Source: Perkinsus olseni (taxonomy: Eukaryota). Taken from it: a stretch of 40,570 nt of DNA. The position numbers and the translations under genes are program-made. Shown here piece after piece: positions 67-40,570 of the stretch (its first letter is position 1; each line of letters begins with the position of its first letter). The notes beneath the pieces are model-generated. The model was not told where the DNA came from, did no database searches, and saw nothing but the letters and a program-made list of their open reading frames with translations. The stretch lies in contig JABANN010000311.1 of the NCBI GenBank assembly GCA_013115125.1, forward strand, positions 1 through 40,570. Reading direction: 5' to 3'.

Positions 67-3000
67 CTCTACCTTGGAGAACTCCTCAATAAATTGCTTC
101 CGGCTGGTAGCCGACCGCGGGATGCTGCAACAGAACAACAGTCTAATTGAACTGACGGTACTCCTGCCATCCCTCACCTCAACGCCAGCAGCTTCACAGG
201 AGAAGCCACTGAGAAGAAGTAGGTGAACTTCTGTAGCCCCTGGCGTGTTATGTGCCTCTGGTCGCCATTCCCTTCCCCAAGGACCTCCAGTACCTGCGCC
301 CTCCTAAGCTCGGATCACCATCCACCTCCAAAAGGGTCCCACCGTAGAGAGGCTAACCAAAGGGAAGCTGCCGATCCAGGACCCTAGCTCATCCCCAGTC
401 AGCTTGCCGTCCTTGTTCTTGTCGAAGGCCGTGAAGAAGGCCTCGGTATTCACGGCAGAGAAGACCGCCAGAAGCCTTCGTAAGCGCCTGCGTCACCGCG
501 CCACGAAATTATTGCCCCTGCCCTAGGTCCTCTCACTTGTGGCGGACGGCGTTCATCCACGCCTCCACGGCCTCCTTCGGTATCCTTCCGTCCCATAAAA
601 GCGCTAGAGATTCAAAATTCTGACGGAGCGACGCATCATACTCTGCATGAAGGGTCGTCGGCGATCCCTCACTCGCGTGGAGAAGCCCCGATGGTTGGCC
701 TGAAACTCCGACGCCATCCTCGCGAAATCCTCTCCGGTCCATCCAGTGCGGGCGATGTCGATCTTGTCCATTACATAGGAGGACTCCGGCAAGTACTTAG
801 CTATTACTCCAGGCATCGACAGCAACCGCAGCATGGCAATTTCTTGATGGTCGATGAACCCTGACGACAGCGGCACCGAGCTGCTGCTGCTGCTGCTGTG
901 GTCAGCAGCGGTCAGCAGCCCACCATCATCATCGAAGTCCAGGAACTCTCCAACTTCAGCGCTCTCAAAGCCCGTGTATTCCTTCATCGCCTTCATAGTC
1001 GCCGCCGCATACTCCTCTACCGGCCCATCCGCCTTCGACTGCACTCTGATCATCAGCCACGGTACTCAATACCAAAACATCCCCTACTCTACTTCTGTGC
1101 CAAAAGCACCGCACTGGCAGGCACAGAATCCTCGCTGAAGCCAGCCAGCCTCTGCAGCTCACCCAGCGATATCGAGTCGGAGCCGTCCACGTCAACGACA
1201 GCGAAAACCTGAGGACGCGAAAAGGATTGACGTCATCCGCCACGGTGGGCTCGAATATCGAACAAGGATCGCGGGGCGTCGAATCACGGACGAGAATCGG
1301 CGTGGGTGGAGAACCCCAGGAGGCCCCGAGTAGATCATCACCGGCCGATCGTCTTGGGCAAAGCCTAGCTCCTCGAAGGCGAGCTCGCCGTCTCCATTGG
1401 TGTCGAACTCCTTGAAGCGCTGAGCCAGAATGAGGGAGTCCAGGATAAGATGAATACGACGATGGTTCCTGAGAAAGGACACATCCCTCAGAGCCAGGCA
1501 CCTTGTTCTGCCAGACGTAATGATAGGCAACGTGAGAAGAAGCGCTGCTCAGACCCATTCCCTTACCACCATCAACCACTCGTTAACGATCGCCACCGAG
1601 AAGCCTGAATCATGTGGGCCTCCCCTTACCGGAGGTCCTTCGATACAACATGTAGCACATCACTCTTGGTGGAGATGAGGTCCTCTGCATCACGGTCAGC
1701 AGGGTACTCTAGGAGGTCGTAGGCCTGCCCGACGGGGCTCCACCCATGCAAGGTTGAGGCCTCCAGACCCACCGTCCGAGAGAACACAGTGGGTGACGCC
1801 TGGATGGACTTGCCGTAGTCGGAAAAGTCCCTAGAGCTGACCCTAGTACTCGGGGACAGCTTCCGTAGACTGTATTCCAATGGTAGACGCCTCCACTGAG
1901 AAGACGAAAGAGTCCCTCGATACCATGATCGATAGGTAGACATTGATCGAGCATCACAGACCACAGCGTGACCAGTTGTGAGCGGTTCCCTGGTCACTTG
2001 ACGGCGTTTCAGCAGAAAGCAGCATAATGGTCCACGCGGCGCCTCTCAATCTGGAGACCAGTGCCTACCTGCTCGCCCCTTTCTCCCTCCTCAAGGAAGG
2101 ATGCCACATGATGACGGCCTCGATGGTGTCGTCTGGTACCCTCCTCCGGATGGCCAGCCTCCTCTTCCCTGTCGGGTAGCGTGGAGACGACCCCCCTCCC
2201 CTGCTGGGCCACGCTGAGTGCATTGGAGGTGAGTCGAGGCCGGCGACCATAACCCAGGTAGAACTCTGTGGCGACCAAGTTGTTCATCTCGTTACCACCC
2301 GCCATGGCCCGGAGGAGGCCGTAGTCGCCGTCTGATGGCTCACCTGACCACACCTCGCTACCATCATATCATGTTCGGCAATCGCTGGTACTAGCCCTAT
2401 CATGAGGCTAGGAGGCCGTGGGAATCTTACCCGCTCCCAGCGAGTCCAGAGCCTTCTTGATGACCGGCACGTACCGCTCCGGCATGACCGCTAAGCGCTC
2501 CTTCGCTTGAGTAACGAACGGTTCCACTGAGTAGGGGAGGAGGTTGTCCCCGACCATGTGGGCTATCCTGAAGGAGAGTGCAGCGGTCTCCAACCTCGGG
2601 GTGGCTGAGGGCCCACCAGAGTGCGAAGCGGCGGACCAGCAGCGGCGCCCGATGAATGATGACGAGCCGCTGCCATTCGTAGCGGGACAGGACACCATCC
2701 CTGTTAGAGTCCAAGTAGAAGAAGAGCTGACCATCGACGACAGGGATGGGTAGCCCGACGGCCCTTCGATGGCCCTCACCGCCTCCCCCACCGGACCCTT
2801 CCAGCCGATGTCTTCCAAGGACAGGTCGTTATGGCGGCCGCCGTCCAAGTCAGAGAACCGACTCTCCAGCGTGAGAGAGTCCATCACTAGCTGGACTGCC
2901 GTGTCCGCCTCCCGGGTCGATACGCTCAACCTCCCCTGGGCGATGGTCCGATAGAGCTCCTCGAAGTCCTGCACTCGAACCTCCTCTCCGTGCTCATCCG

Positions 3001-6000
3001 ACACCAACTCGTCGAACGCCTGAGAAGGTCAACGTTACTAATGAAGGGCTCGCCCGAACAATCCGTCTGCTAGTTCACTTCGCGCACGGTAGAGCAAGTC
3101 GTCCCGGAGCATCCCTCCCCACCTCCTTGGAGAACACAAAAGAAGGCGCGGCAATGGTCCGACCGAAGGCCGTGAACTCATCAAAGGCGATGAGGCCGTC
3201 ACCATTGGCGTCGAGTAAGGCGTAGATCTCCGATGGGGCCTCACGGAAGAGCTGGCAGGCAACACCAAGGGAAGCAACCCTTCACCGGGCAGCCCTGTTA
3301 CCGAGACCAGAGTGTGCTTGTCAGGAGCAGTGAGAAGGAGTATCCAGGAGTCCAGTATAGTGGCCACGCCGGCACGGAAGGAGTCGAAGCGCGGGAAGAC
3401 TGAGGAGGAGCGCTTCGGGAAGGCGACTAGAGCTCAACGCTGGTACTCTCGCTAACGTGCTTGATGGCAGTCCGGAGGCCCCTCATGGTCCTGATAGGTG
3501 TTATGTCGCTCTCGAAGAGACCGTCCTTAACGAAGCGGGCGAAGGCTCGGGTGTTGGCCGTAGTGGGGTACTTGCTGTACAACTGCAGCCATCAGAGAGT
3601 TCAGGCGACAGGGAAGAGCCTCCCCCGACCTACATGCTCCATCTTCTCCCTCAACGCCTCCACTGCAGCGAGAGCTGTCTTGTCCACCCAGCTGAGGGAG
3701 GCCTCCAAGGCTGGCTCGGGAAACTAGGCCGACAGCGTCGGCCCGACTGTATCGATGCGGGCGGCGCTTACCCTTCCGATCCTGCCCACGGAGAAATCAA
3801 CTTCCTGAGGAGCCAGCACGTTCTTAAACTGGACCTCATGAGGGCTGTCGTGATGGTAATGCCTGAGTAGTAGCATCATCCCCTCCCTCGGACCCCACTG
3901 TAGGCCACCCCCCATCGTTGGGCTGCTCCTCTCCCCTCCTCCCTCCCCGGCCGGGCTGTGTGGCCGGCTCTATCATCATCCGGGGCGCGGCCGCCTTCCT
4001 GCGCCTACATGAAGACGCCCTCAACTCCTTCCGCCGAGCATCCCCCTACTCGCCAACTGCCGGCCACGGTCCCGAGGGGTGGACAGTGGTGACCACGGAC
4101 ACCCTGCTGTGAGGAGGTCTGGTCCGCAGCCTGTATGGCGATCCCACCGCAGAGGGCATCGGCAGCACCAGAGCCCTCGAAGGAGGAGGGGCCGGCGGAT
4201 GGAAGATAATACGAGGCACGAAGGGGTGAGGGGCGAAGAGAGGCGCGTAGCGGACAGCTCTGACCAAGGAAGGCAGCAGCGTGACGGAAGAGGCTCTCTT
4301 GCTCCTACCCAGCCACATGGGTGACGATAGGCGGGGTGACGAGGCGCTGGCCAGGCGAGAGTCTGTACGGCAGCACCGGCGACCTCGCTTCACCCATGAT
4401 GGTCGCCATGCCCTTCAATTCACCATCCCGAACCTTTGGTGCCGAGGGGACGCTAGGCTGGCCCTCCTCGGGCTGCCCATCAGGCTGGTCATCGGCCACA
4501 CCTTCGTCAGGCGACCACGGGCGTACATGACGAGACTCCTCCTCTTCTGGTCGTTGCGATGGCTCCTCAGGGACGCCCTCCGCCTTGGACGGTCCTTCCT
4601 CCTGTACCCCATCTTCCTCCTCTGAATCATTCTCACTCTCATCCATCCGAGTGGCCCCATCAGGCACTACAGGGTCGCCTTGCTGCTCGTCAGGCGACTC
4701 CTCCTTGCCGAATACTGCGTCCAGCACCTTGTCCTCGGGGCTCTCTTCATCCGAGGTCCCCGGTTCGATCCCACCCTCCGGCGTTTCATTTTCTACCTCT
4801 TCTGGCACCTCACCAGCCTCTGGATTCACATCATCACCTTCAACTTCCTCAGACACTCCTTCGTCCTCCTCCTCGCCTCTGAGCCCCATTTCCATCATCG
4901 CAGCCGAGCCGACGGCCCCTTTCTCCTCCAGCAGGCTGCCGCTGCTCCCATGACCCTCCCCCGGGCCATAATAAGACTTCACAATCTCCGCCAATAGAGC
5001 GCTCTGAGTGGCCTCCCTGTCCCATGCGATCTCCGGTGGGACCAAGGCCTCGTGAGGAGCAGGTCTGGCCAGGACCCCAAGTCCGTGGCAGTAGGAGTAA
5101 AGCACCTACCCCGGGCTGGCCCCCCGTCAACGGCAGCCACCACAACCCACCCGTTTTGTGCTGTAGGTGACCCCACTGAGGCTACGGACGTCATTGACCC
5201 TCACCAGGGTCTCGATACCAGCCGAGGCAAAGCGCCTTCGCAGGTCCCTAACATCAGCGAGAACGTCCAAATGCGGTCGGAGGCCACCGCCGTTAGCTTC
5301 TGTATAGATGGTGAAACTAAAAGGCAATAATGCCTACAGCGCTGACCACTGCTCGGCCGACTACCTGACGAAGTTGCCCGCGAAGCTGTGGGCTACGATG
5401 GTGCCCCGAGGGCTCGAGGAGATCTCCATGTCCTCTCCTGTGACACCTACCCAACCATCTCCACCGAATCTGCCCGACTCCAAAACTCACCATTCTTGAA
5501 TGTGAGGTCAAGATTCTCTCTGTTCACTTTCGACATGGCCTGGCGGAGTACCAGACAGACCTGCACGGCAGGGCTCCTCGCTGGGCCCTATCCAGCCCCA
5601 CCCGCCTTACCCTGTCTCGGAACTTCTGAGTAGTCTCCGCGTTGAGGATCTCTATCTCGCCCTCTACTTCCATGGGGGAGTTGTCAAGGGAGCATCCTCG
5701 AAAGACTTGGAGGTGGAAAGGCGTACGGTCAGAGGAGGGTGGGACGAGGTTAGCCAGGCAACCCTGACCGCAGGAACGACAGAATCCTGAGAACCTCCAC
5801 TGTGGCCGTACATGCAGGGCAGTGTAGGCGGCCCTGGCGGTCTCCTCGTGCTGCTCGGGGGAAAGGCCGCCAACAGGAACGCGAAAGGGCTCCGTCTGAA
5901 GGGATAGTCGGCTGATCACCGAGAGGAAGGGGGGAGGACGCACCGAGAAGACCAACTCCGCGAAGAGGCCGTCCTTGGCGACATCATAGATGACTGTATA

Positions 6001-6663
6001 GACGGGATTGAAGCCAGCGGCTGTGAGGGCGTGGATCCTGAAGGAGTCGTCGCGGTAGCCACTACCATCATTGAGGCCCACATAGCATCCTTAATCCGAT
6101 CCACAGAGGCATGGTGGCCCTGGTCCAGCACTGGATACGGAAATCTAACCTTTCCGATTACCGCCTGATGGAGGACAGCCTCGAGAGAGGGCGGCGTCTC
6201 CACCACTACTACAGCTGCTGTTGCCGGCTTTCGAGACTTCTGCGATATGACAAGGGAATTGGTGGACATGGCAAAGGAGCCGGCCAACTCATAGAAGTGG
6301 CTTGGCTGGAGGCTGTCCAGCAGGTGAGAACACTGAGAGACCCAAAAACGAAAATTTCACTGCGCCACGAAATTGTCCCCTCACCCCGCAAACCGAGGAG
6401 CCGTAGAGTTGCGAGGTCTGCTCGGCACAAGCACCTTCCGCCGCGGACATCACCTGAGCCACGGCTCCGGCCTCCTTCCCCCGACCCTCTCCCCTCACCT
6501 GCATCAACCCCACCACGCCAGCGCCGCCCTTCGCCATATAAGCCTCGAAGGGCCGACACACACGCTCCTCCATCGACGGTCCGCAACCTTCCGACAGCGT
6601 CTCCTTGGACGCTACGGCCCAGCCGGAGATGAGAAGGAGGAGAGAGCGACAGTCCAGGCGCAT
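67..6663 (-). CDS. Very large multi-exon protein: signal peptide, acidic E/D/P-rich linker and multiple EF-hands; 3' end lies beyond the window start
   Basis: N-terminus MRLDCRSLLLLISGWAVA (ATG 6663). Acidic exon in ORF 4305..5105. The apparent stop at 4305 is removed by a 49-nt GT-AG intron that keeps frame into AVRYAPLF. EF-hand loops DANGDGLIAFDE (~3175-3210), DSNRDGVLSRYE (~2675-2712), DTNGDGELAFEE (~1370-1405), DVDGSDSISLGE (~1158-1195), DKNKDGKLTGDE (~388-423). Could be two genes. Confidence 0.6.
497..508 (-). promoter_or_regulatory. TTTCGTGGCGCG motif (exact), in 49-nt intron 488-536
   Basis: The + strand reads CGCGCCACGAAA; the same word recurs across the window. Confidence 0.7.
6361..6372 (-). 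promoter_or_regulatory. TTTCGTGGCGCA motif variant, intronic
   Basis: 11/12 match; follows the donor GTGAGGGG in an early intron of the EF-hand gene. Confidence 0.6.
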
Positions 6664-6787
6664 GAGAAAATAACTCCGGTCCTCCATCCACAGCTCCCGA
6701 TGATTGACAACTCAAGAAGAGCCGCTGTAGTTCACAAAGTAGTAGCTCAGTTAGGAATCGAAGAGGAAGGAAGGAAGAATGGTTACT

Positions 6788-7569
6788 CTATATACGAGAG
6801 TCGGACAGGAATTGGGTGGTGTCCGGCATGGTCCTAGGCACAGCCCAGGTGTAGGTTGTAGCCAGGGACCGCCGAGGGCTCAGAACCTCGGCCGAAACTT
6901 CTCCTTCTCTCTGTAGTTCTTGCGAGCCTCCTTCATTTCGTGCTTGAAACTGAACACCGGAGTCAGGATGCACAAGATTGGGCCGAACAAGCGTCCCTGA
7001 TGTAATCCACTTTACTTCTCTTGAAGGTTTTCCGGGGGCTCCCAGGTCATCTCCGTGTAGCCTTTCCACCGTACCAAGTATTTCCGTCTGAGCAGCTCGC
7101 ACTCCCGTCAGCAAACCCTACTACCAGACTTACCCGTCAAACTGGAGGATTCGGTCCACGATGTACCTAAAGCTCCCCTGCACCCGGACCGCTAAGTTGT
7201 GCTGATAGTACCGTCTATCGCCGTTATCATCTTCAAAACCATTCATGACCACGTCAGAGTCACTGAGTATCGAGGACGCGCTGGAAGACGACGACGATGA
7301 AGAAGAAGAGGAGGAAGAATCCTGAAGCACGGTCGTGTAAGGCTGAGGGAGGGTCACTACAAAGAGGTCTCGCAAGGCCTCGAGGATCCAGTACGAATTG
7401 TAGCCCTGGCGGTGTCTCCACCTACATCATCATCCCTCGGCTCGTTATCATCATCATGAGAGGGTGAGCTGTCCAAAAGGTTGATCGTGGGAACGATGAA
7501 ATCGGACAAGTCGTCGGAGGGTCTCCTCTTCTTCTTGCCGCTGGAGCCTTTACGGAGATGCCCTACCAT
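6788..7569 (-). CDS. Hypothetical protein (about 3 exons; basic KKKRR stretch, poly-Ser, acidic patches)
   Basis: ORFs 7357..7572, 7130..7375 and 6788..7114 lie in series with GT..AG junctions (e.g. GACGG|GTAAGT). No family recognised. Confidence 0.5.
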
Positions 7570-7728
7570 CACGAATCATGAATAGTTGAAACCCAGCAGC
7601 CGATACCACTCCAATCGAAGTTCATGTGCGGGGGGAGGGGGGCATAACTAATACCACTCCTTCCCTATAAAGTCACTCTTGCGCGTACAGAAGTTGCTAT
7701 TAACTACTGCTGATCGTCTACACTACTA

Positions 7729-8652
7729 CTAACCCAAAGGGCTACGCACAAGAGGTGTCCGAGCATGCCAGCCCACTTCAACCCCTGGATTGTAGACAGC
7801 AGCAGCGGCACAAGTATGCCTACGTTTCTCCGACGTCCGCACTTTCTTGGTCGACTGTCTCCTCTTCGGAGACTGTTCGGGAACTGAAAGGACGGTGCGA
7901 AGCTCCGAGTCCGAAGGCAAGCGGTCTTAGTTGAGCGACACGAGCAAGGAAAGAAGAATGCCCACTGGGTGGCAGGTTGATTACCATTGTAGCTATCGCT
8001 GCGGCTTTTAACTTCACTGGCGTCCTTCTTCCTTTTCCTTGATAGCCCCTTCTTTCTCTCCACCTTGCCCTTTCTAAGGCTGCCCTCAGAGGCCGCAGTA
8101 GCCGTCGTTTCGGACGGCGATGCCACAAGCCCTACCAACACCCGACGTGCTCCATCACACCCGATGCGCAAGAGTCCGTCCAGCTACTGTCGTGGTCGTC
8201 CGCCTCCTCCGCCTCCACCGGCTTCATTTCGCTTCGGATCAGATAGACTTTACGTCGATGTACTGCCGCCTCCAATTGTGTCAATAAATCTTCCACGGCT
8301 GAGAGAAGTCTCACGCGTAAACCTTCACGCGCCACGAAACTATTCTGCTCTACTTTTGATCTTGCTCATGTCCACCTCATCCTCCGTGATACACGTCGGA
8401 GGCCGTGGGCGTTGAGAAGTCATTAGCCCTACGGTCTCGCAATAGCTACAGCCAGTGACGCATTCCTCGAGGCCCGAGAGTCCTCGACCGACACGGTAAT
8501 CCACGACGACACGTCTCTTCTCTCTTGTCCTCCTCTCCCCTACTCTCCGCGAGAGTCTGCCCTGTCCCGAGTGATCCTCCGCAGTCCCCTGTCAGCATTA
8601 ATCGGCCGAATAAAGTCAACAAGGGAGTCCAGTGGAAACAATCAATACCCAT
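7729..8652 (-). CDS. Hypothetical multi-exon protein with basic C-terminal half
   Basis: Splicing joins ...EDEVDMSKIK|TVEDLLTQLEAAVHRRKVYLIRSE...; K/R-rich downstream exons. Start and end uncertain. Confidence 0.4.
8328..8339 (-). promoter_or_regulatory. TTTCGTGGCGCG motif (exact), intronic
   Basis: Lies in the intron GTAGAGCAG...GACTTCTCAG; part of a 20-bp exact repeat shared with 10292-10311. Confidence 0.7.
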
Positions 8653-8682
8653 ACTAACGCGCAGTATTTTACCAGTGGTTCC

Positions 8683-10242
8683 TTAGACAATACGCTCGAG
8701 ATCGGTAGCGTAACCTGCGGCAGACAAAAGATTTCGCTGCCGCTTTCGGCCGGCGCCCAGCACTACCTATCATATTCGATATCAAATCCAATGCTGGCAT
8801 TGCTGAGGCATCATCTCTTATCTTCTTGAAAACGAGCCTGGCCGAGAAATGAGCTAGTGGTGTCAGAAAAGAGGCCAAGCACGATCGAATCACCTGTCGC
8901 CCTCGACGACCCATCGAGTGCTCAGTCTGTTCCTGAGCCTCGCCTGGGCAGGAGTCGACGGGTCCTCCAATTCTAGCGTGGAGAGATTGGCTGAAGTGAC
9001 AGAGAGCTTCACAACACCGTCGCCGCCCACTGCCATGCTGCTACCTTCATCAGCAGCCTTCCTGTCGTTCTCTGCCTTGGCAAAGAGCTCCAACGACTTC
9101 TTATCGTTGGGGTCCATAAGAAGCATCTTGCAGGCCGTCTTCGAGTGCATGGAGGTGTAGGCACGCTCCAGCGACGAGGCGATTTTGATTCTGATTTTCA
9201 CCCTTCGTTATAATATCACAAAAAACACTGTTACTACCGGACTTGATTCACCACCCTCTGCAGGAGCAGCTCCGAGTGGGGCAGGTCCTTAGCCGCCTGT
9301 GAGACACAAGCCTTCAGCTTAGTGCCATTGCCTTCCATGATGCACCTTTCGACAGCCACCTGATCGACGACGAGGAAATGGCGGGCAGACTAAGCCGACG
9401 CCCTCGGTAAGAACTACAGCCGAGTTCGAAGCGGAAGTCCAGAGTTTACGCGATCATGATTTCCCTACTACCGGTAGTTGGATCTGAGGAGTCCCAGTGA
9501 GGGCCTCCGGCAACTGTTCAACCTCAGTGTGGAACTCTCCAGTCCGGTCGGCACTCTGATGAAAGGCTGCAGCGTAGTGGTGATGGTGCTTCGAGCTTAC
9601 CAGTAAGAACAAAAGGTAGAGGCCCATGATGGTGGCCATGTTCGTGGAGGGGGCCTGCTGATTGTTGGGGCTTTCGAAGTAATAGCGGCGTAGCTGAGTC
9701 ACTCTCCTTTCGAATGCTGAGAGGAGGAAGAAGACAAGCAAGGCGTCTCGACCAGCACGCTGGGCCGGCACGAAAGTGATGGGCAGTTCGAAATGGCGTT
9801 AGCCAATCTATCATGAGACTTCTCGAGAGAGGCCCCTCCTATCATTTATATAGCTTCTATAGGTATAGGAGCATCCTAAAATGAAGGGAGGGCTAGACGA
9901 CCGAATGTTGCCAAGATTTCGACGTTCCCGAAAGCCGTCCAGAGGTAGCAGCCTACCTCCCATATCGCCAGCCTTCAATGCATCAACAGCAGTGGTTTCC
10001 AGGGTTCCTCTAGCCCACTGTATGAACTCGTCTGTCAACAAGGGAATCCATATACCACACCATCACCACCTCCTACTACTACCCTGTGTCTTTATCCCTA
10101 GATTCTCTCGTGCTTTGATGATCTCGTCGGTGGGCGTGAACCCGAGGGCCAGCATCGCTATCTGAAGAAGAGAGAACTCACCATAGAGGGCCTGGCAAGC
10201 TCCGCTGACTACCTCCGACTTGTCTATGACAGCAGCAGCCAT
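8683..10242 (-). CDS. RPN12: 26S proteasome regulatory (lid) subunit RPN12 / PSMD8
   Basis: Spliced translation gives ARGTLE...AFERRVTQLRRYYF...IMGLYLLFLLSADRTGEFHTEVEQLP...PVAVERCIMEG...IASSLERAY...IGYATDLERIV*. This matches the RPN12 pattern FERYMAQLKCYY / [24 protein letters not shown] and its typical C-terminus. An extra upstream exon is possible. Confidence 0.92.
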
Positions 10243-10296
10243 GTTTTCAAAACCTTCAGTTGATTTATGGGGATGGCCGAGCAATGTTGGGCTTCA

Positions 10297-10308
10297 CGCG
10301 CCACGAAA
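10297..10308 (-). promoter_or_regulatory. TTTCGTGGCGCG motif (exact), ~55 nt upstream of the RPN12 ATG in a divergent intergenic gap
   Basis: Exact copy between divergent starts at 10242 (-) and 10458 (+); may lie in a 5' intron of RPN12. Confidence 0.7.
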
Positions 10309-10457
10309 CTACGCGCACGCCCAAGAGCACATTTCTCCTGAGCCTGCGTACTCAGAAGTATTCTCACGGTCTCCCCAGTTTTGGCTGGTTGAGGTGATAA
10401 ACTTTTTTTGGTTCGTAGATTGTAGACCTGCATAATCCCGTTTTCACTCTCAAGCTT

Positions 10458-12450
10458 ATGAAGGTAAAATTCCTGCTTTCATTTCGGCCAGTTTGTTTGC
10501 TCCCTTCATGAAGGCCCGAATCAACCTGCGGCGGAAAAGTGTCGGGACGCCTATGGCCGCCACGCAGGCAGCAGCTCCTCTTCTAGGTAGTAATGTCTTT
10601 CACCGTGGGCCTCGGTGATTGGCTGTCAGGCCCCCACGGAGGGTATGATCCAAGCGTTGGGTCCAGGAACCTGCCATTCTCGAGTGACGAGGCTCAGGAG
10701 CAGGTACCGCCAGGCCCAGCACAGGTGACAGGAGGTATCGATTACTTGGCATAGAGATCGTTGCATGTTACTGCGGCTTGGGTATACTTCTTCAAATAAG
10801 TCCGGTTTCAGGGAGCGGCGCGTGGTCAGGCAGAGGACTCAACGCCACCTGTACGGTCCAGTGCCAAACGACGCCGAGAGTCCGTGGTAAGGGGGAGAGC
10901 CCTTGGCAATGATTGATTGCTTGGCATTCTTGGGAAGCTGCTAGCACGTCTGGGACTGTATGTGTTCGCCGTTTTTTGCGGCTTGTCCGAGTAGGAAGCG
11001 CTGCATGAACCTCTTTCACGACTCTCAGCGGTCCCGCGAGTATTCGTTCCCTCAGACTAAGTGCAAGACCCTATTGGGTGGTCCGCCCTCTGCAAAAGCC
11101 GCCAAGCATTTAACGGATACCTCAGCATCTGGCGGCCTCCCCAAGACCGACGGCGACAGCAATGCCCAGCTGTCGGTGTCCCTTGTGAGTGCCCACACCG
11201 ATTGGAGGATGAGATGGACTCTAGCAGGTCTTTGATAATCCTAGTGATGGAGGTAGGCGGCTGTCAGTGGGTCGAGCAGGCGGCGGCGGAGCGACGGGGA
11301 GTCATCGTACGGAGAAACGACCAGGGACGGAGGCTGAGAGGGAGGACAAGGAGATGATGATAATGGATTGGAAAACTAAGTTCACAGTGAGGCTCCGTGG
11401 TCGTGGCTGCCGCCCATCAACTCAAGGGTCAATACACCTGAGCTGGTACAGCGTAAAATGATGGGCGATAGTATTAATACATAGCTTGTGGCGAAAGAAC
11501 TGTATCGTGCAAAAATGAAACCACTATGCCACCAGCAGAAATTCCAGAAATTCCTCTGTTCCACAGCCGGTGGCCATGGAACAGCAGCACTCAGCGAATG
11601 CAGGCTTAATGCTTCAATTGTTTGACCGCCCTTCGTGCGCCTCATTCGCGCTTGTCGCATTTTGTGGGCATTTCTTATAGTCTGCAGTTCACCTCGGAAT
11701 TTTCTAAAGTCTACCTGCTCCTGCTGCCAGCTTCGAACTGCCCCCTACTTCAGCCTGGGGAGATCGTCATAATACCCCGGAGTGAGAACAGACTGCATTA
11801 TGGTACGGTAGTAGCAGTGGACGAGAAGCTCGTCAGTGTGGACCTGGGCAATAATATGATCAAGAGGATGCCCACTCTACTGGTCGGCAAATTGAGTAGT
11901 ACTGGAGACATCCTTCTTGGGGAATTTCGTGGCGCGTGACGTATTCCTCTCAGGCGAACCATCAGCGGCATCGCACTCGTCTGATATAATGTCTAAGGCT
12001 AAGACGGTGATGCATACAGTGGAGGCCATCAGCCATTACCTCTTGACTTCGGCCAAGCTGAAGAAGCCCATTGATGACAATGTCAGGTAGTTGAAAAAGC
12101 GGAATGGAAGCACGCTGGAAGGCTTCGTACGGTCCTGCGGCTCAAGTCACTGATTTGTGTCGGGCGGTTGATGGTTGATCTGGGGAAGGTGTGGTATTCT
12201 GTCAGGAGCCACTGTGTCTTCGTCCTCACGTACCAGGCCCGTCGTCTGTTTGCGTTACTAACCAAGCAGGAGCATCACTACAGCACCAGAGTAAGGCTGG
12301 TGTTCCTCGTTGCTGATGGGCATGTTGTTTTCTTCCCAGGTAGCACATGAGAACCATTCAATCGACGCTCTTATGAAGGTTCGGAAGGATCTAGGTGGCA
12401 TCACTGGGACCATCGATCGGTTCCTCGCTCGAGAACAGCATAGCAGCTAA
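10458..12450 (+). CDS. Hypothetical multi-exon protein with an SH3/KOW/Tudor-like segment
   Basis: Starts MKARINLRRKSV. Exon PGEIVIIPRSENRLHYGTVVAVDEKLVSVDLGNNMIKRMP has an SH3-barrel-like pattern. Last exon ...IDRFLAREQHSS* ends at 12450. May be more than one gene. Confidence 0.5.
11925..11936 (+). promoter_or_regulatory. TTTCGTGGCGCG motif (exact), in 58-nt intron 11896-11953
   Basis: Exact copy, followed by TGA as at 8328 and 10297. Confidence 0.7.
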
Positions 12451-13293: not shown

Positions 13294-13298
13294 TGTAG

Positions 13299-15023: not shown

Positions 15024-18000
15024 ATGGCCCCTTCAACTTCTTCATCATCATCGCCTTCGAGCTCCCCTCATCCGTCCATTGCCGTTGATGCATCCTGTAG
15101 GAGGAGTGTCGCCCATGACGTCGAGGCCGAGCTTCGTATCATATGCCTAGAGTCACGGAAGAAGTACAGCCAGATAAAGGAACACTCTGAACGAGTGATC
15201 GCCAAGTTGATCGCAAGTGATGGTGATGTTCCTGTAGAAGAAGTCCTTGCGGTCATCATTGTGGCTTCGGAAACTCACAACCCTAGGCTGCTCCTGCCGT
15301 GTCTGGGTTGCATTCAAAGGCTCATCATGGGCCAGCTCGTTAACACCCCCAAAAGGCTCACTACCGTGGTCACCTACCTGCACGACCGAGCGAACGACAC
15401 AGATCCAACGGTTCAAGTGAAAGCGTTGCAGACCATCCTATTGCTGCTCACGCCCCCCTTCGCTCCGCTGCTGACGAACTCAGAGCTTCTGATGAGGCAG
15501 TTATTGTCTGCGTGCGTCATCCTACTCAATAGCGAATCGAGCCTAGTCCGGCACACTGCCGTGGCGTGTCTTCGTCAAGTTGCTGATTTCTTGCTTGATG
15601 GTGCCGATAAGGCCTATCACAGTTTGTCTGAGAAAGACCTCGAGAACTTGGGGTCGAGTGGTCGCAACGGTGGTCGTAGTAAAGGCCAGAGTGCCTCATT
15701 GATGGTCGAGGCGATGCCAGTACCTGATAGACTTCCTAGTGGTAATATTCCTTTCCCCTCCTCACACAGCACACTGCACAACTCCCAGGCGAGTAGGGAA
15801 ACATTTGGTATCTGTCATCAGGTCCACTTCGACTACTATTCCTCTTCGTCCATGACTTGTGCCTGATTTCCTTGGGGAGAGCCTCCCGGTGCAAATGGCT
15901 GGGTGAACTTGCCATATCGAGAACGCTGGCGTTGGAGCTCATAGAAAGTACGGGGGCCGGCACACGCGTATCGAGTTACTAGTCCGCGAAGAGCACTCGC
16001 AAATGACACAGTTCCGCTGGCTAAGCAGACGAGCTAGTTTCGTTCCCAAGGTGCAGTGGCCGTTGAAGCGGACGTTTTCGCATCCCTACCCGACTTCACG
16101 GAACTCGCCCGAGAAGTCGTCGTCCCCACGGTGGAAAGCACTATAGCTGTTTGTCAGTATGATTTCAAAGTAAGGCTGTTCCCTGTCACACGATGACCGC
16201 GCGCCACGAAAATATGCCTCCCGACAGGTCCTTATTCGTGCACTAAGAATCGTCTATCGACTATGTTCGTACCCTCCCCTCTGCTTGAAACTAGCACGCG
16301 AGATCTGTGGCGATTCCTCGGCCCCTGGGGAGCAGTCCCTGCACGGACCATCCCGCGGCCTCGTACCCTTGATGCTGCGCCAACTACTGCTGCGCCATGA
16401 TCGCCCCCTCTGGGCCCGATCGGCGGTCCTCGAGACCTTCAAGAAGATACTGCAGTCGGACGACTCTTCTAGCGGCTTCCTCAATACCCTCTTCTTGGGG
16501 TCGTCTTCATCGTCCAGCGCGTTGTCTAGCTCGCCACTGGATGACACCGTGGCTGCTAGCGATGACGGTAGCAGCAGCAGCAGTCCAGCAGCCTCGACGG
16601 GGCGGGACGTTCACATCGATCCCAAGTCCAACCGTTTCGTTGAGCTTGTGAACAGCCTCAGTCATGTTCTGCATCACCTCTGGTTTGCATCGGTACCAAC
16701 TCAACCCGACACCTCCGATGGCAGTATGAGAATGTTCGGCCTGTATGATGCGGATCCGTCCCAAGCCGCCACCGGGAGCGACCTCCTCGCTCTGGGTGTC
16801 GCCCACGTTTTCGCCGGGGAGGGCGGAGTGTCTCTTCTAGACTGCCTGGCTGACTCAGAGCCTCCTACCTCCGTCAACCCATCCTTTGGAGCGGCACTAG
16901 CAGCCGAAACTATACTCCTCCTAGTGGAGCACATCAAATCCTGCGACATGTTGGCGTGTTCGTGGGCCCCTCTCCTGTCCTCACTCAGTCTACTGCTCAG
17001 CGTACGCCTCCCTCAAAGCCACTCAGAGGGAGGCGGCGAGACTGTAAGGCACGCCGACGACGAAGAGGCTTTTGACGTCTTCCTCCAGAGCGTTCTCAAC
17101 GCCCTAGAACGCCTGCTACTGGGATGTGCGAAGTTCCCTCAGCTGAGTAGCGGCAGGGACAGCTGCCTCGAGGCCCTAGCCAAAGAGTCTCTCCCTCGCA
17201 AGGGGGCGCAGGAGCTAGACTCCCATACGGCCACCTGTGCCAAGGGCTTGCTCAACATCTGCCACAGAAGTGGCGAGCGTCTATCGGTCCCGGGCTGGAC
17301 CCTGGCCTTGAGGACCTTCGAGACTCTCTACCTGCGCTTCATCAACGCACAGCAACAACAGTCCGGCGCGACGATCTCCGACAGCGGTCTCGAGTGCCAA
17401 GTGCTGGCAGTCTCTATGGACTCCCTCTTCTCCACCCCACCGGACGCTGATGGCTCCTTCGTTGACATGGTGGATGCCCTGGTTCACCGAGACACGTGTT
17501 GGGCCCTTGAGAGGTTGGCGATGGCATTAGCGTCAGCTGACTCGAGGCGGCTCGACTTAGTTCTCGACACCATCGTATCGCCGGCCCTTAGGACGTCTCG
17601 TCATCCGGAGGAAGCCGCGATCTGCGCCGGCAAGGTCCTCATGGGCCACATAAACCGTCAAGGCTGCTGCCCTAGGAGCCTCATAGCACCTCTCAAGTCC
17701 TTCACAACCTCTGCTCCCGAGACGGTGGTGTCGATCCTCAAGGACCTCATGGTACGCTCACCTGTAGCTACGGAACTGGACGCGGCGGGTTGGGTCTCTC
17801 TGAGTGAGCTCATCCGTGATCTTTGTGATGTGCCAACAGCTGTTGGTGCTTCTCGAGCCTCTTCCACCGGCAAACGTTCCAGCCAACTGATGACCAATCA
17901 ACTGCACTCGTCAGTCTACTCCACGCTGGAAGCTCTCGTCATGGACTGCATCGACGTTCTCCCTAACGCCAGCGTAGCTCTTATCATCGATGGTCTCCAA

Positions 18001-26420: not shown

Positions 26421-28969
<2,549 letters not shown>

Positions 28970-30560: not shown

Positions 30561-32520
30561 TCATTTTCCCTTACACCAGCCCTGACCGTCCACTCCGCAG
30601 CCGGTGACATCTTCACAGTATAGCCGTTCCTTTGTGCCACTGTGTGTCGAAGCTTGTGGATCCACCGAGGCCTGGCCTGGCGATAAGAAGCACGATACCG
30701 AGAGAGAAGCCCCCCGGTCGAACCTTATCGTTAACGTAGTAGAAACCATCGATGGGCTCATAGACGATCTTCTCGGCCGGGTCCACGACAGGGAAGAACA
30801 ATGAGCCAACGTCTCCGAACTCCCGGTCTGAAATGTCGCGCGCCATGAAATGCCCGACGTGAGAGGAGGGAAGTACTGGGTGCCGTTCCAGTATAGAATC
30901 CCCAGTGAGCCTTGTCGCTGGCATCAGCAGGATGCAACTGCGGCTTCCCGATGAGCTCGGAGATATCATAAATACTGAAAATATACAAAATATCGGCGGA
31001 GCGAAGCACCGTAAGAACTACTTACTCTCTCCAGCCCTCATCCAGGACTTCTCTCATTGCGGCTTCTCGACTGGACTGAGCAGTGCCACGGACTATATGG
31101 CCGATGAAATTGACGAAGGACAGACTCATAGACGAGGCGTCGTTGCCGTCATCCAGCAGCTCAGTAGCCAAAGGCGACAACAATGTGGCGAGCCTAGAGA
31201 GCACTCCCTTGGAGGAAAGGCAAGCGGCCTCATCGCTTCTACCGTATCCGATAGGCATCGACAGCAGTGAGCTCATCTTCCCTGTCACCAGCACATGCCG
31301 CAGATGCCTCCAGGAGCGCCCTGTGGTCTAATGGAGATGGCGAGGTGAGGAGGCGCACCAGCACTAGCGAGGCCAGAGTAGGGTGCCGTGGTGGTGCACT
31401 GGACCTGTTGTTTAAAATTTCCGTCGGCGCTTCAGTATGGTGGCAAATAACGACCGGTACGCCAGCAGCAGGATAAAGTCAGCTTACCCCAACAGCCCCA
31501 TGATCTTCGCTGTAACGCCCTCGCACTCCGACTCGATGGCAGCCCCCATGCAGTGACCCAGATACATATGGGTCGTTCGATCCGTCGAGGGCCCTTCTAA
31601 CACCTAGACGAGGCACACTCCCGCCATGTGGCTGCCAGGGAGGGAGCCTCGCCTTGTCCACTAAGGCAGCCAATTGATCATCAGCGATTTTACATCCTCG
31701 GGCGGCGGCCCGGTGAGCTAGTACAGGCGCTGCTTCTAATTCGAGAGACCCGTCTGAACCGGAGTGATCCTGATACTGGATGCGCCAAGTTTTTATCTCA
31801 CCGCTCCACGACGCAGCGGGATCCTCAGCACCAGCGGCATCACCGTTGAAGGTACCAAAACCATAGAAGTTGGATACGCTGTTGAAGGCAGCCAGTGGGC
31901 CCTGGTCGGTCCTGGTGACGATGGCAGGCCGGCCCACAGTGACAGAATCTAAGGTCGATAAAAACACTGCCACTCGGGCTCTATCCGAGCTTCATCCCGA
32001 TTGCTAATCAGGCGGGAAGGAGAGGTCTACGCGTGTCTCCGATGGAGGCCATGCGAGCCCGGCGCGACGGTCATCAGTCATCTCAACCAGCCAACCGGCG
32101 CCCGCAAGTAGCACAGGCCTCCAACAACAGCAGTAGTCCTTGCGGTCAAGCGACGCACGGACATGCCGGCCGATCGCCGCGCAAGATCGACCAGCGAAAC
32201 GTGCCCAACCAATAATTACCTAGGCGGCCAGCGTGGTCCGTAGCCGGTGCTGCACAGAAGTGCCGCCGCCGTACCCCGGATAGCCTGGTCCGTGTTATTC
32301 CTGTTGACCGGACGAAGAGGACGCAGAGCATCCACTTCAATGCTGAACTTCGCGTTAACGACCGAGTATTGAACCGAATATCCGCCGCCGGCACAGCAGG
32401 AAAGCTGAAGTCTCACGCGCCGCAAAATGCCGCGTGCGCCCGGACATCACTGGCAGTGCGCTGCCGTCGGTATGTGCTTACCCTGACCACTGGGGTGCTT
32501 CTAAGGTGGTTCTGTGGCAT
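30561..32520 (-). CDS. Hypothetical multi-exon protein
   Basis: MPQNHLRSTPVVR|LSCCAGGGYSVQYSVV... joins in frame. Further exons lie in ORFs 31479..31973, 31022..31294, 30613..30969 and 30561..30809. No family recognised. Confidence 0.5.
30839..30850 (-). promoter_or_regulatory. TTTCATGGCGCG motif variant, intronic
   Basis: 11/12 match just upstream of the acceptor TTTCAG. Confidence 0.55.
32416..32427 (-). promoter_or_regulatory. TTTTGCGGCGCG motif variant, first intron
   Basis: 10/12 match. It is followed by TGAGACTTC, and CGCGTGAGACTTC also occurs in the motif-bearing intron near 8310. Confidence 0.45.
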
Positions 32521-32691
32521 GTCTCATGTCAACGAGCTTGGATCAAAATGGTCCATGTTTTGTGAGTTGAAATAGAGTAAAGAGTGGGATTAAAAAACGC
32601 CGGTTTTGATAATGAATTGTCCCATCATGATGACCGCGGGCTGCTAGGCACCGTCAAGACTACTGCTGTTTATTGCTTTCAATTGTAAACA

Positions 32692-33445
32692 ATGGTCTTC
32701 GAGCCCTTCGCCACCTTCGCTCACCCAGTTGTCTCGGCTGGTGTTGCTGTACTAGTTCTTTATGGCGCGAAGAAGGGCTTAGAGTAAGGTGTTCGTCAGC
32801 TGGACTCAGTCCAGTGGACTGCTTCCTGTGAACCACCGAGTGTCCGTAGATGAAGTCGCTTGATGGAGTTGAAGTAATCAAACCTTCAGTTCCCGAGCGA
32901 CGACGACGACGACGAGCTCGCCGTCCGAGCTCAAGGAAGCTCGTGGTGAGAGGCACGCCAAAGTGATGTACCTGGCCACTGGCCTCTCATTCGGTACAGC
33001 AGCATTCGGCACGGCAATGATGGCAGCATTGCAGGATGGCGAGGATGATATCGAGGTGAGCCCGTACGGTGTTTTCTCGCCTGCGTACCAACGCGCTCGT
33101 GTTTGTCGTGTTGCAGTTCGGAGCGCTCTGTGCAAACGCTGGCTGGGTTCAGGGTCTAATTTGATCGATTGATAGTTGAATGCCACTGACGCTAACTGTG
33201 AGTCCACAGGTCCTACAGTCGCCTCATGCGCGCTTGGCCGGCCTCTTCCTATCCGCGATGAGCGTCAACTTCGCACTCTCACAAGGACTCTTCGGGAAGT
33301 TTGATAAGTACGGCTGAGATAAACCGATGCTCGTTCCCCTGGAAGCCTTAGGTCGAAGCGTGGACTTCACGCTTACATTGGATACGCTATAGCCTTCGGA
33401 GCAGTCGCCCAGTGGATGTCGGGCATACGCCTCCTGCTAGCTTGA
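32692..33445 (+). CDS. Four-TM, four-His membrane protein, DUF4079 / cytochrome b561-like (4 exons)
   Basis: Spliced: MVFEPFATFAHPVVSAGVAVLVLYGAKKGL...ERHAKVMYLATGLSFGTAAFG...VLQSPHARLAGLFLSAMSVNFALS...KRGLHAYIGYAIAFGAVAQWMSGIRLLLA*. The HP / RH / SPH / R.LH / Q..SG pattern fits my recollection of DUF4079. Confidence 0.7.
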
Positions 33446-33817
33446 AGTAGCATGCGTGTTTATCCTTTGCAGCGTTTCTCAGCCATCGGTTGTTGTGTCT
33501 TCTATTGGTTGGGAAAAGAAAAATTTACTGATGTTTCACAGACGGAGCTGCCTTCCTCCTGGTACCTTGAAGCCTTCAAGGCATCAACGCTCTGGGAAGA
33601 TACGATAGGAGCTGAGGATAGAGAACTGAATGTCCGCTCTTGCTCGTGAGCTCGAGGAGCGGCTTGCCGGGGAAGATCGGCCGCGCGTTCAGGGCTTTCT
33701 CTTCATCGCAGCACATAGAAACGTATCTCAGTTATACTCATATTAACGAAGACCGATCTAACAACGGCTTCAAAGAAACAGTACGATACAATAAGCAAAT
33801 ACATACATTCAGTGTAC

Positions 33818-36325: not shown

Positions 36326-36549
36326 GTCGATGAACAGGCAGTCAGCAAAATCTAAGGAACTACTATCCGCGAATTTCTTTTTTCGATTTTTTTTCGCTCT
36401 GCTGCCCGCGCATGCACAGGATGCACAGTGCACCAAGCACTCTCCCACGTGCGAGAGAGGGTGGCTCGACGCAGTCACGAATTCGGAAAGAAGCGAGGAC
36501 GTGGAGGGAACGCTGAGCATCATCGACATCAGAAACAATTGAAAGCATC

Positions 36550-39500: not shown

Positions 39501-39699
39501 GTAACTCGCGTGCGCGGTATGAAAATATCCATCATGATATGCTTATTTGCCAAAGACACTCTTCAACCCTAGATACCACTCCCTCGCTCGAACCGACTAA
39601 ACTTGTCCCCACTCCCACTTGTCCCCGTTGTATCACCTTCTTTTTATCCTTCCCTCCGAGCCTCGTCTCTCGGGTATGTCCCAAAGACTTGCGAAACAT
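36550..39699 (-). CDS. EIF2D: Eukaryotic translation initiation factor 2D (ligatin): PUA, SWIB and SUI1 domains
   Basis: MFRK...RLGGKDKKK, LYPTVFGL, LARGADLMLPGV, GKAVEVLH..GD, VDIKKTSWRKVGKLLK, and a SUI1-like end SGNK..TLIGGV...FAKALAKHNASSSTV...VQGN...FL...GVP. Confidence 0.9.
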
Positions 39700-40139
39700 A
39701 ATATAACAATCGGTGAATTGAAACGATTAAACAACTGCAGACACAAGATGGCCCAACTCGCTACACGAGTGAACTCGACGTCGGACAGAACTGGGCAGTG
39801 GAGCCACACCTTCGGCGCGTCGATCGGAACCGCGGGGACTCCTTCTCCCGTCTAGGACAATCCAGAATCTCCGGGCCAAACACCCCCAATTCTCGACTTC
39901 TCTTATTCGTGAACGCGGCCGTTTCAACGTCGAATGCCCTGCTCCTCACTCGGAACGCAAAAGGACTTCAACTCACACTTGAAACAAAAGTTAAAACAAT
40001 CCCCGCAAATCATACTGAGCAGTCGAGAAAAAACGTGTTAACAGAAATCATGGTGGAAGGGCCGCCCGCCATCACCACCCGGTAACGGCAGTCATGACCA
40101 CGCCTACACTTCGAGCGACGCCACTTTAACAATTACGAA

Positions 40140-40570
40140 TTAGATAGAGAATCGTCTCAGGAGGGGTTCTCGTTGGTCGGCCCACTCGAAGGACCTCGGA
40201 CGCCTCTTCCTCGGGGCGAGCTCATTCGAAGCCTCTGGCCCCCCGGCAGGCGGTGCTAGCGAGCTGAGAGTTACACCCAGCAGAATGACGAGCATGCCTA
40301 GCAACTGGGAGGGGCAGGGCAGCAGACCATCAATGGCGAAGTTGAGGCCCAAGACGATGATGGAGTTGGCAGAGACCACCACGTTAACGAGGCTGGTGTG
40401 GGGATAGGAGAGGGCTAAGTTGAGGGCGAAGAAACCAGTTACCTGGCAAGGAACGGTAACCCCCGAGTCGATCCATCGTGGCGCGACTGCCGGCAGAGTG
40501 GGAACGCCCGTCATGAGCGTAGTCCAGCTACTTGCCAACAACACCGACTGCGTTATGGACAGACCACGGA
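40140..40570 (-). CDS. C-terminal part of an EamA/DMT-superfamily membrane transporter (5' end beyond window)
   Basis: FFALNLALSYPHTSLVNVVVSANSIIVLGLNF...QLLGMLVILLGVTL, followed by a cytosolic tail with the dileucine-like EPLL. Confidence 0.65.
   Translation of the reverse strand, partial: RGLSITQSVLLASSWTTLMTGVPTLPAVAPRWIDSGVTVPCQVTGFFALNLALSYPHTSLVNVVVSANSIIVLGLNFAIDGLLPCPSQLLGMLVILLGVTLSSLAPPAGGPEASNELAPRKRRPRSFEWADQREPLLRRFSI
40474..40485 (+). promoter_or_regulatory. CATCGTGGCGCG motif variant, probably intronic and antisense to the host gene
   Basis: 10/12 match about 30 nt upstream of the minus-strand acceptor TTGCCAG|GTAACT (~40443). Confidence 0.4.

What the first reader, a model, noticed from the sequence alone, without database searches (positions are those of the whole stretch)
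497..40485. Dispersed 12-mer TTTCGTGGCGCG sits inside tiny introns of unrelated genes, in both orientations
Seen: exact copies at 497, 8328, 10297, 11925 and 16200, and variants at 6361, 30839, 32416 and 40474. With equal base frequencies a given 12-mer is expected ~0.005 times in 40.6 kb on both strands (the word was picked post hoc, but five exact copies still far exceed chance). Eight of nine copies fall in predicted short introns; the ninth is just upstream of RPN12. Most are sense to the host gene, but the MON2 and EamA copies are antisense. Known: the TGGCGCG core resembles E2F/DP sites (TTTSSCGC). Inference: orientation independence and a ~1 per 4-5 kb density deep inside gene bodies favour a genome-wide DNA-binding mark over a branch point or ordinary promoter element. 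Candidates are a chromatin organiser, nucleosome-phasing or insulator site, or replication-origin signal, parked in the only non-coding space of a compact genome.
Basis: partly seen in the sequence, partly recalled or inferred. Interest (0 to 1): 0.8.

Follow-up and report, generated by a model that had tools for sequence, protein, structure and literature searches.

The report
Conserved word inside tiny Perkinsus introns
A 12-base word recurs letter-perfect inside the very short introns of unrelated genes of the shellfish parasite Perkinsus, mostly pointing the same way as the host gene, which suggests an undescribed signal whose function is still unknown.

Summary
The repeat is real. TTTCGTGGCGCG occurs 5 times exactly (0.00 expected) and 7 times with at most 1 mismatch (0.07 expected). 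The three 2-mismatch hits (32416, 35886, 40474) are at chance level. Database protein names place the window in Perkinsus olseni or a close relative.

Of the 7 solid copies, 6 lie in 49-58-nt GT..AG introns:
- 16200 is supported by RNA contigs.
- 497, 11925 and 30839 are supported by database protein models.
- 8328 is supported by an open frame plus a contig break.
- 6361 rests on frame continuity only.

The seventh (10297) sits 54 nt upstream of the RPN12-like start codon. Six of the 7 point the same way as the host gene; only the MON2 copy is antisense.

The word is all-or-none. It extends to about 18-20 nt, usually followed by TGA, and has no shared RNA fold. It does not match the E2F, U12, CHR or Sm consensus strings. 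Its distance to either splice site varies.

Best reading (about 35%): an intronic signal read on the pre-mRNA by a sequence-specific factor. A DNA-binding site (25%) and a copy-paste element (20%) remain open. No genome was available, so genome-wide claims are untested.

The parts
497..508 (-). Exact copy, sense, inside coding intron 488-536 (49 nt) of an EF-hand protein gene. It lies 28 nt from the 5' splice site and 9 nt from the intron's 3' end.
   Evidence: exact copy. P. olseni model P0121 maps to 942..70(-), and its residues run NAVRHK then RLRR across the gap. I read frame continuity.
6361..6372 (-). One-mismatch copy (last G to A), sense, in candidate coding intron 6333-6384 (52 nt) near the 5' end of an unexpressed, unnamed gene.
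   Evidence: Frame continuity across the candidate intron was read. My crude gene model starts at 6687. There is no RNA or database support. It shares 24 of 31 bases with the 497 copy (family D1).
8328..8339 (-). Exact copy, sense, in the first coding intron 8299-8353 (55 nt, phase 1, 16 nt after the ATG at 8369) of a gene I read by eye as a chromodomain protein.
   Evidence: With this intron removed, only the acceptor at 7562 gives an open 231-aa frame, and 7562 is where the RNA contigs break. The splice-pair score is 13.3, inside the range of confirmed introns. The joint itself was not among the 15 joints shown.
10297..10308 (-). Exact copy 54 nt upstream of the RPN12-like ATG (10242), co-oriented with it. 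It lies in the roughly 310-nt leader region between RPN12 (-) and a divergent + strand gene with a candidate ATG at 10553.
   Evidence: An RNA contig reaches at least 10269 (side 57). No good splice pair surrounds it (score 2.7). The 20 bases 10292-10311 are identical to 8323-8342 (family D9).
11925..11936 (+). Exact copy, sense, in coding intron 11896-11953 (58 nt, phase 1) of a + strand gene, about 1.3 kb downstream of its candidate ATG.
   Evidence: Database models P0131 (100% identical in both flanking exons) and P0132 (a diverged homologue) both join ...LLVGKLS to the next exon across this segment. The splice-pair score is 14.3.
16200..16211 (-). Exact copy, antisense to its host, inside the MON2 (+) intron 16170-16227 (58 nt). 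In host orientation it lies 30 nt from the 5' splice site and 16 nt from the 3' end.
   Evidence: One search gives the MON2 domains; contig pieces of 3 runs start at 16228; 3 of 106 exon chains fit the 246 contig letters with an open frame, and in all three the last intron (starting at 16149, 16157 or 16170) contains the copy.
30839..30850 (-). One-mismatch copy (TTTCATGGCGCG), sense, in coding intron 30828-30876 (49 nt), about 1.45 kb downstream of the model's ATG at 32331.
   Evidence: P0122 aligns over 634 of 634 residues with 14 introns, this one included. The printed sequences of P0122, P0124, P0126 and P0127 run ...TAP then NRE/NRQ across it; one search showed alignments only for P0122 and P0124.
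32416..32427 (-). Two-mismatch variant, 84 nt upstream of the start codon used by models P0122 and P0125. It is a candidate 5'UTR intron (32405-32481, 77 nt). Membership is probable but not shown.
   Evidence: chance-level class; start codon at 32331; splice-pair score 10.6. The shared 13 bases with the 3' part of the 8328 intron were read by eye.
40474..40485 (+). Two-mismatch variant sharing a 10-base exact core. It is doubtful: it lies inside an open - strand frame, not a demonstrated intron.
   Evidence: the ORF 40143-40568(-) is open across it and gives only a weak EamA hit (14.6 bits against a cut-off of 28.2).

Best explanation
TTTCGTGGCGCG is the core of an 18-20-base word. The word prefers A and a purine just before the core, usually has TGA just after it, and often has a G-run a few bases upstream. 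It marks a minority of the tiny spliceosomal introns of Perkinsus: 3 of the 43 introns listed carry it. It also occurs in at least one 5' leader.

I think it is most likely read on the pre-mRNA, in the sense strand, by a sequence-specific factor. That factor could be a protein or a small RNA carrying the complementary 12 bases, and it would act in recognising or processing these introns, for example around the branch region and 3' splice site.

Shown:
- The copies are real.
- The word is all-or-none rather than degenerate.
- It lies in introns.
- It is mostly co-oriented with the host gene.

Inferred:
- It is under selection rather than recently copied.
- It is read as RNA.
- It has anything to do with splicing.
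For: The word is far beyond chance. It is the only non-low-complexity word of 11 or more bases with at least 5 copies in the window.

Its 8- and 9-base sub-words occur almost only inside the full copies. For example, TTTCGTGG occurs 6 times, all 6 in copies. That is a long exact word, not a degenerate site.

Six of 7 solid copies are in introns (P 0.0004-0.014), and 6 of 7 are co-oriented with the host gene (P 0.06).

The host introns are 49-58 nt, the ordinary size (median 54 over 40 introns, shortest 45). Taking out about 20 bases would leave them shorter than any intron seen here. So the word is part of a normal-sized intron rather than an add-on.

Sequence around the core has diverged (alignment A1) while the core stays exact. 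This fits constraint on the core.

The other 40 introns have no strong internal signal: 17 of 40 show T[GA]A[CT] at 6-45 nt from the 3' end. A strict word in a subset therefore stands out.

In 5 of the 7 solid copies TGA follows within 1-4 bases (print).

RNA contigs of 3 or 4 runs that diverge from the window do so right beside 3 copies (511, 6356, 16192). So the word with its own flanks also exists in other transcribed sequence.
Against: The MON2 copy is exact yet antisense, so an RNA-level role in the host transcript cannot explain why it is kept.

The distance to the 3' end varies (9, 28, 29, 17, 11 nt), as does the distance to the 5' splice site (12-29 nt). It is not a fixed-position splice signal.

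The enrichment of a good acceptor just downstream is weak: 5 of 9 against 26% of random places.

The 10297 copy has no convincing intron around it.

The co-orientation rests on 7 copies and is not significant at 0.05.

No partner RNA or protein was found or could be searched for.
Confidence: 0.35

Rival explanations
1. DNA-level site. The word is bound as double-stranded DNA by a sequence-specific factor, whether a transcription factor, chromatin organiser or origin factor. It sits in introns and leaders because that is the non-coding DNA of a compact genome.
For: There is an exact antisense copy in the MON2 intron. One copy lies in the roughly 310-nt divergent leader between RPN12 and the neighbouring gene. 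The word has three CpGs in a genome that is not CpG-depleted (observed/expected 0.88). The TGGCGCG part resembles half of an E2F site. In the alveolate Cryptosporidium an E2F-like motif is the most over-represented upstream motif (PMC4117751, passages read).
Against: Six of 7 copies are co-oriented with the host gene and 6 of 7 are intronic. Four intronic copies lie roughly 0.4 kb (a minimum, for 497) to 1.5 kb from the host gene's start, so they are not promoter-proximal. TTTSSCGC is absent from 8 of 8 motif segments on both strands and occurs once in the whole window. A letter-perfect 12-mer with no degenerate relatives is unusual for a factor site. The host genes share no evident theme.
Confidence: 0.25
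2. Copy-paste origin without present function. The word would be the core of a short mobile or locally converting element (introner-like, or spread by gene conversion or templated repair) that survives only where it does no harm.
For: The word is all-or-none. Neighbouring copies share extra flank: 8323-8342 is identical to 10292-10311 over 20 of 20 bases, and 493-523 matches 6357-6387 at 24 of 31. Adjacent copies are more alike than others (permutation P 0.06). One copy is inverted. Contigs from elsewhere share about 20 bases including copy-specific flanks (loose ends at 511, 6356, 16192). Introner families are known in related parasites (Amoebophrya, PMC7789003, passages read).
Against: Likeness covers only about 20 of 49-58 intron bases. 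No terminal inverted repeats or target duplications were found (by eye). Host introns are of ordinary length, so the word is not an insertion into a pre-existing intron. Intergenic DNA should tolerate such an element, yet at most 1 of 7 copies is there. The 11925 intron position is shared with a diverged homologue (P0132), which suggests an old intron; the homologue's DNA was not seen.
Confidence: 0.2
3. Upstream signal of independent mini-genes for small RNAs nested in introns, as with the upstream motif of C. elegans 21U-RNAs (recalled, not checked).
For: The copies are dense and local: 6 of the 7 solid copies lie in the first 16.2 kb. They sit in introns and a leader, and one is on the opposite strand.
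Against: No small-RNA data were available. There is no conserved spacer or downstream element. The strand bias towards the host gene is not expected for independent units. Rfam found nothing.
Confidence: 0.05

Closest known systems
Branch-site word of U12-type (minor) introns
   Same: A long, nearly invariant intronic word carried by a minority of introns, in the sense strand and near the 3' end, while most introns have only a vague branch signal.
   Different: The sequence is unrelated. None of the host introns has the U12-type 5' splice site or branch word (0 of 8 segments). The distance to the 3' end varies from 9 to 29 nt. One copy is antisense. The consensus strings used were recalled from memory.
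Introner elements (Micromonas, Aureococcus, Amoebophrya; PMC7789003, passages read)
   Same: A repeated sequence found in many introns of unrelated genes in a marine protist, a relative of dinoflagellates. Sub-families share flanks.
   Different: Introners are alike over their whole length and often carry direct and inverted repeats. Here only about 20 of 49-58 bases are alike and no such repeats were found.
E2F/DP sites, e.g. the over-represented upstream motif of Cryptosporidium (PMC4117751, passages read)
   Same: A GC-rich GGCGC(G) core. The host is an alveolate. One copy lies in a divergent leader region.
   Different: The consensus TTTSSCGC is not met on either strand. Most copies are in internal introns. 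The copies show a strand bias. Whether Perkinsus has E2F/DP genes was not tested.
The 12-base 3' intron motif of Trichomonas and Giardia (recalled, no paper read)
   Same: A 12-base conserved word inside very short introns of a parasitic protist.
   Different: That motif sits at a fixed place against the 3' splice site in essentially all introns. This word has a variable place and occurs in a small minority of introns (3 of 43 listed here).
Intron-mediated enhancement signals of plants (10.1101/083261, seen only as a title and abstract in the listing)
   Same: A motif that lives in introns, in sense orientation.
   Different: Those signals are short, redundant and act within about 1 kb of the transcript start. 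This is one long exact word, and several copies lie 1.1-1.5 kb into the gene.

Membership tests
E2F/DP binding site | Match to the consensus TTTSSCGC on either strand | tested here: not met
   0 of 8 motif segments match on either strand, and the consensus occurs once in the whole window.
E2F/DP binding site | E2F and DP genes present in the organism, and binding shown | not testable with these tools
   No genome is held. The literature search (12 papers hold both terms) gave nothing on E2F in Perkinsus in the one paper read.
U12-type intron | 5' splice site [AG]TATCC and branch word TCCTTRAY | tested here: not met
   0 of 8 segments. The donors are GTGAGA, GTGAGG, GTAGAG, GTAGTA, GTACTT and GTAAGC.
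Introner / MITE-like element | Likeness over the whole element; terminal inverted repeats or target-site duplications | tested here: not met
   conserved columns are confined to about 4 + 12 + 3 bases. One search found no such repeats around the copies.
Introner / MITE-like element | Presence/absence differences between strains or species | not testable with these tools
   No second Perkinsus genome could be reached. The metagenome scans found no relatives.
Fixed-distance splice signal (Trichomonas/Giardia type) | Constant distance to the 3' splice site, sense strand only | tested here: not met
   the distances are 9, 28, 29, 17 and 11 nt. One copy is antisense.
Known structured RNA family, or tRNA | Match to a covariance model, or a shared fold | tested here: not met
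   0 Rfam matches at E up to 1; 0 tRNAs; z-scores range from +1.13 to -2.86, 1 of 8 folds is below -2, and the word pairs differently in each.
Spliced-leader sequence or relic | Likeness to the Perkinsus spliced leader (sequence taken from PMC9399869) | tested here: not met
   0 matches in the window with up to 3 mismatches.

The most novel reading that the evidence does not exclude
Perkinsus (and perhaps Perkinsozoa generally) has a second, sequence-defined class of spliceosomal introns. Roughly one intron in ten to fifteen, plus some 5' leaders, would carry a 15-20-base tag recognised by base-pairing with a dedicated small RNA or by a dedicated protein. This would be functionally analogous to the minor spliceosome but unrelated to it. 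The tag would have spread by copying between nearby introns.
Probability: 0.12. Interest if true: 0.85.

Novelty: new variant of a known kind. Interest (0 to 1): 0.55.

Why it matters
Perkinsus is the sister lineage of dinoflagellates and a major parasite of oysters and clams. Very little is known about how its genes are regulated or its very short introns recognised.

A letter-perfect 12-base word in a subset of introns is a concrete handle, whichever reading holds:
- If read as RNA, it points to an unknown recognition system for a class of introns.
- If read as DNA, it would be the first candidate cis-regulatory word for this group.
- If it spreads by copying, it bears on how introns and their contents propagate in alveolates.

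I found no mention of the word in the literature. Exact-string search returned 7 papers, of which the 5 listed use the strings in unrelated contexts by their titles. Searches on Perkinsus with introns, motifs, introners, promoters, splice signals and E2F showed nothing on it.

Tried and rejected
**Whole genome.** None is held, so no genome-wide count was possible.

**Relatives in metagenomes.**
- A protein scan with MON2 found none: 225 pattern hits, 0 confirmed.
- A 19-base degenerate pattern found 35 loci. All 35 carry a single copy of the 12-mer, and 34 of 35 have at least 74% of their length in long open frames, as prokaryote contigs do; the exception is a 1.3-kb contig. I read them as chance hits.

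Loose ends beside three copies (511, 6356, 16192) are not found anywhere in the window. I considered four readings:
- Structural variants bounded by the word.
- Lariat or trans-splice junctions.
- Contigs of diverged haplotypes.
- Short cross-matches of other family members. A (GCT)n run at 880-898 gives loose ends in the same way.

The last two readings fit best, but I cannot tell them apart.

**Promoter idea.** In 4 of 9 copies the first downstream ATG lies 52-100 nt away and opens at least 28 codons (random 17%). I dropped the idea after database models showed that 11925 is an internal coding intron and that the 8328 copy lies in the gene's first coding intron, downstream of its ATG.

**Other checks that led nowhere.**
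- My own gene finder was too crude. I used it only for a start-codon guess.
- A good acceptor downstream is only weakly enriched, and splice-pair scores discriminate poorly.
- No shared RNA fold, no Rfam family, no tRNA, no spliced-leader likeness.
- The E2F, U12, CHR and Sm consensus strings are all absent.
- The earlier-findings index held nothing relevant.
- A single RPN12-like exon matched no solved structure.
- One literature search returned only unrelated genome papers.
Full report

Yes. TTTCGTGGCGCG occurs exactly at 497(-), 8328(-), 10297(-), 11925(+) and 16200(-). Dinucleotide-preserving shuffles give 0.00. With at most one mismatch there are 7 hits against 0.07 expected, which adds 6361(-) and 30839(-).

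With at most two mismatches there are 10 hits against 3.32 expected. The two-mismatch class therefore has 3 observed hits (32416, 35886, 40474) against about 3.25 expected, which is chance level. 35886 lies in a 920-aa open frame.

I treat seven copies as solid, 32416 as probable and 40474 as doubtful.

The word is all-or-none. Its 8- and 9-base sub-words occur almost only inside the copies. It is the only non-low-complexity word of 11 or more bases with at least 5 copies in the window.

Alignment of the copies shows conservation over about four bases before the core and three after it, and nothing alignable beyond that. TGA follows within 1-4 bases in 5 of the 7 solid copies (print).

Some neighbouring copies share more flank:
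- 8323-8342 and 10292-10311 are identical over 20 bases.
- 493-523 and 6357-6387 share 24 of 31 bases.
- The tendency of neighbours to be more alike is only suggestive (permutation P 0.06).

**2. What organism and what genes?**

Database proteins that map onto the window with near-identical exons are named Perkinsus olseni. They include a mitochondrial Hsp70, an EF-hand protein and an esterase-domain protein. The window therefore comes from P. olseni or a very close relative.

RNA contigs of four public runs confirm 15 GT..AG introns of 44-240 nt in the first 20 kb. Spliced alignment of two database proteins gives 24 more introns.

The introns have these features:
- Median length is 54 nt over 40 introns; the shortest is 45.
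- The donor consensus is G|GTA(G/A) and the acceptor consensus is TCAG|.
- There is no strong branch consensus: 17 of 40 motif-free introns have T[GA]A[CT] at 6-45 nt from the 3' end.

**3. Where do the copies sit?**

- **497.** Inside a 49-nt coding intron. Removing it joins the frame exactly as in model P0121.
- **11925.** Inside a 58-nt coding intron. Models P0131 (100% identical in the flanking exons) and P0132 (a diverged homologue) both splice across it. It lies about 1.3 kb into a + strand gene.
- **30839.** Inside a 49-nt coding intron. The printed sequences of four models run across it, and spliced alignment of P0122 places it there.
- **8328.** Inside the first coding intron, 16 nt after the ATG, of a gene I read by eye as a chromodomain protein. 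With this intron removed, one and only one acceptor (7562) opens a 231-aa frame. The RNA contigs break at that position.
- **6361.** Inside a candidate 52-nt intron. The only support is frame continuity.
- **16200.** Antisense in a MON2 intron. Contig pieces of three runs start at 16228. All three exon chains that fit the contig length and keep the frame open place the copy in the excised segment.
- **10297.** 54 nt upstream of the ATG of a 283-aa RPN12-like frame built from nine RNA-confirmed introns. One exon gives a weak CSN8/PSMD8 hit (E 0.0039). The copy lies in the roughly 310 nt between that ATG and the candidate ATG of a divergent gene.
- **32416.** 84 nt upstream of the start codon used by two models.
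- **40474.** Inside an open frame with only a weak EamA hit.

In sum, 6 of the 7 solid copies are intronic. Five of those are sense to the host and one is antisense. The seventh copy, in the leader, is co-oriented with RPN12.

**4. How unusual is that?**

Introns make up 38% of four fully modelled genes, and less of the window as a whole. The chance that 6 or more of 7 copies fall in introns is 0.0004 to 0.014 for intron fractions of 0.20 to 0.38.

Co-orientation of 6 of 7 copies has a one-sided P of 0.06.

The word's position inside the intron is not fixed. It lies 12-29 nt from the donor and 9-29 nt from the 3' end. Host introns are of ordinary length, so the word takes up a fifth to a quarter of a normal intron rather than being added to one.

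**5. What it is not**

- There is no Rfam family or tRNA.
- There is no shared RNA fold.
- There is no likeness to the Perkinsus spliced leader (sequence from PMC9399869, passages read).
- The E2F consensus, the U12-type splice and branch words, the CHR and the Sm consensus are all absent from 8 of 8 motif segments.
- There are no terminal inverted repeats or target duplications.
- The genome is not CpG-depleted (0.88).

**6. RNA contig oddities**

Contigs from three or four runs match the window up to points 3-8 bases from three copies (511, 6356, 16192). They then continue with sequence found nowhere in the window. At an ordinary intron, the one comparable loose end (7319) stops at the exon edge.

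Either these are short cross-matches from other copies of the word elsewhere in the transcriptome, or they are contigs of diverged haplotypes that keep the word while the rest of the intron differs. A (GCT)n run at 880-898 behaves in the first way.

Both readings imply that the word, with its copy-specific flanks, exists in other transcribed sequence. Neither can be proved from the truncated tables.

**7. Interpretation**

An exact 12-mer in diverged surroundings points to one of three things: constraint, recent copying, or recognition by base-pairing.

Intron preference and co-orientation favour a signal read on the pre-mRNA. I put this first at about 35%. The exact antisense MON2 copy and the leader copy keep a DNA-binding reading alive at about 25%. 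That reading fits poorly with the strand bias, with the internal position of four copies, and with the failed E2F consensus.

A copy-paste element with no present role gets about 20%. It explains the all-or-none word, the shared flanks of neighbours and the inverted copy. It does not explain the ordinary intron lengths, the short extent of likeness, or the rarity of the word in intergenic DNA. Small-RNA mini-genes get about 5%.

The remainder is unassigned. With seven copies in one window and no genome, these odds are soft.

**8. Novelty**

Exact-string and topical literature searches found no description of this word or of any intronic motif or introner in Perkinsus.

I class it as a new variant of a known kind, namely conserved intronic sequence elements, with mechanism unresolved.

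Noticed in passing
window 1335-6003: This stretch has about 0.61 GC in 2001-6000, against 0.52-0.57 around it. RNA contig cover is 0 in three of four runs and at most 2.6 in the fourth, although both neighbouring genes are well covered. Open frames there have no Pfam hits. It may be a silent gene or a strain-specific segment.
   Followed up: partly
window 6880-8369 (-): A 231-aa frame in 8 exons, highly expressed. Its C-terminal part reads like a chromodomain to my eye; no family search was run on the joined protein. It has an unusually long 422-nt third intron and a 4-codon upstream ORF overlapping the start codon.
   Followed up: partly
window 10242-10553: The RPN12-like gene (-) and a + strand gene are divergent, with only about 310 nt between their candidate start codons. 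One exon of the + strand gene (11754-11894) matches a unit repeated up to 16 times in very large database proteins (P0128).
   Followed up: no
window 70-942 (-): The P. olseni database model P0121 is named 26S proteasome subunit 8, but it carries EF-hand domains and maps to the EF-hand gene, not to the RPN12-like gene 8 kb away. This is probably a naming error or a fused model in the source annotation.
   Followed up: no
window 2163, 3606, 30786 (and 31276): A second repeated word, CGACAGGGAAGA, occurs 3 times (its 11-base core 4 times). At least two copies are in coding sequence, so it may be coincidence.
   Followed up: no
whole window: Splice sites are distinctive. The donor is mostly GTAG or GTAA followed by G or T (9 of 16 have G at the fourth intron base). 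The acceptor is TCAG in most introns. There is no clear branch consensus. Several database versions of the same gene differ by 5-25% (P0122 against P0125-P0127; P0131 against P0132), which fits diverged haplotypes or paralogues.
   Followed up: partly
window 880-898: A (GCT)n run attracts contigs of several other loci (loose ends at 880, 883 and 888 with three different continuations). It is a useful control for reading loose ends beside the motif copies.
   Followed up: yes
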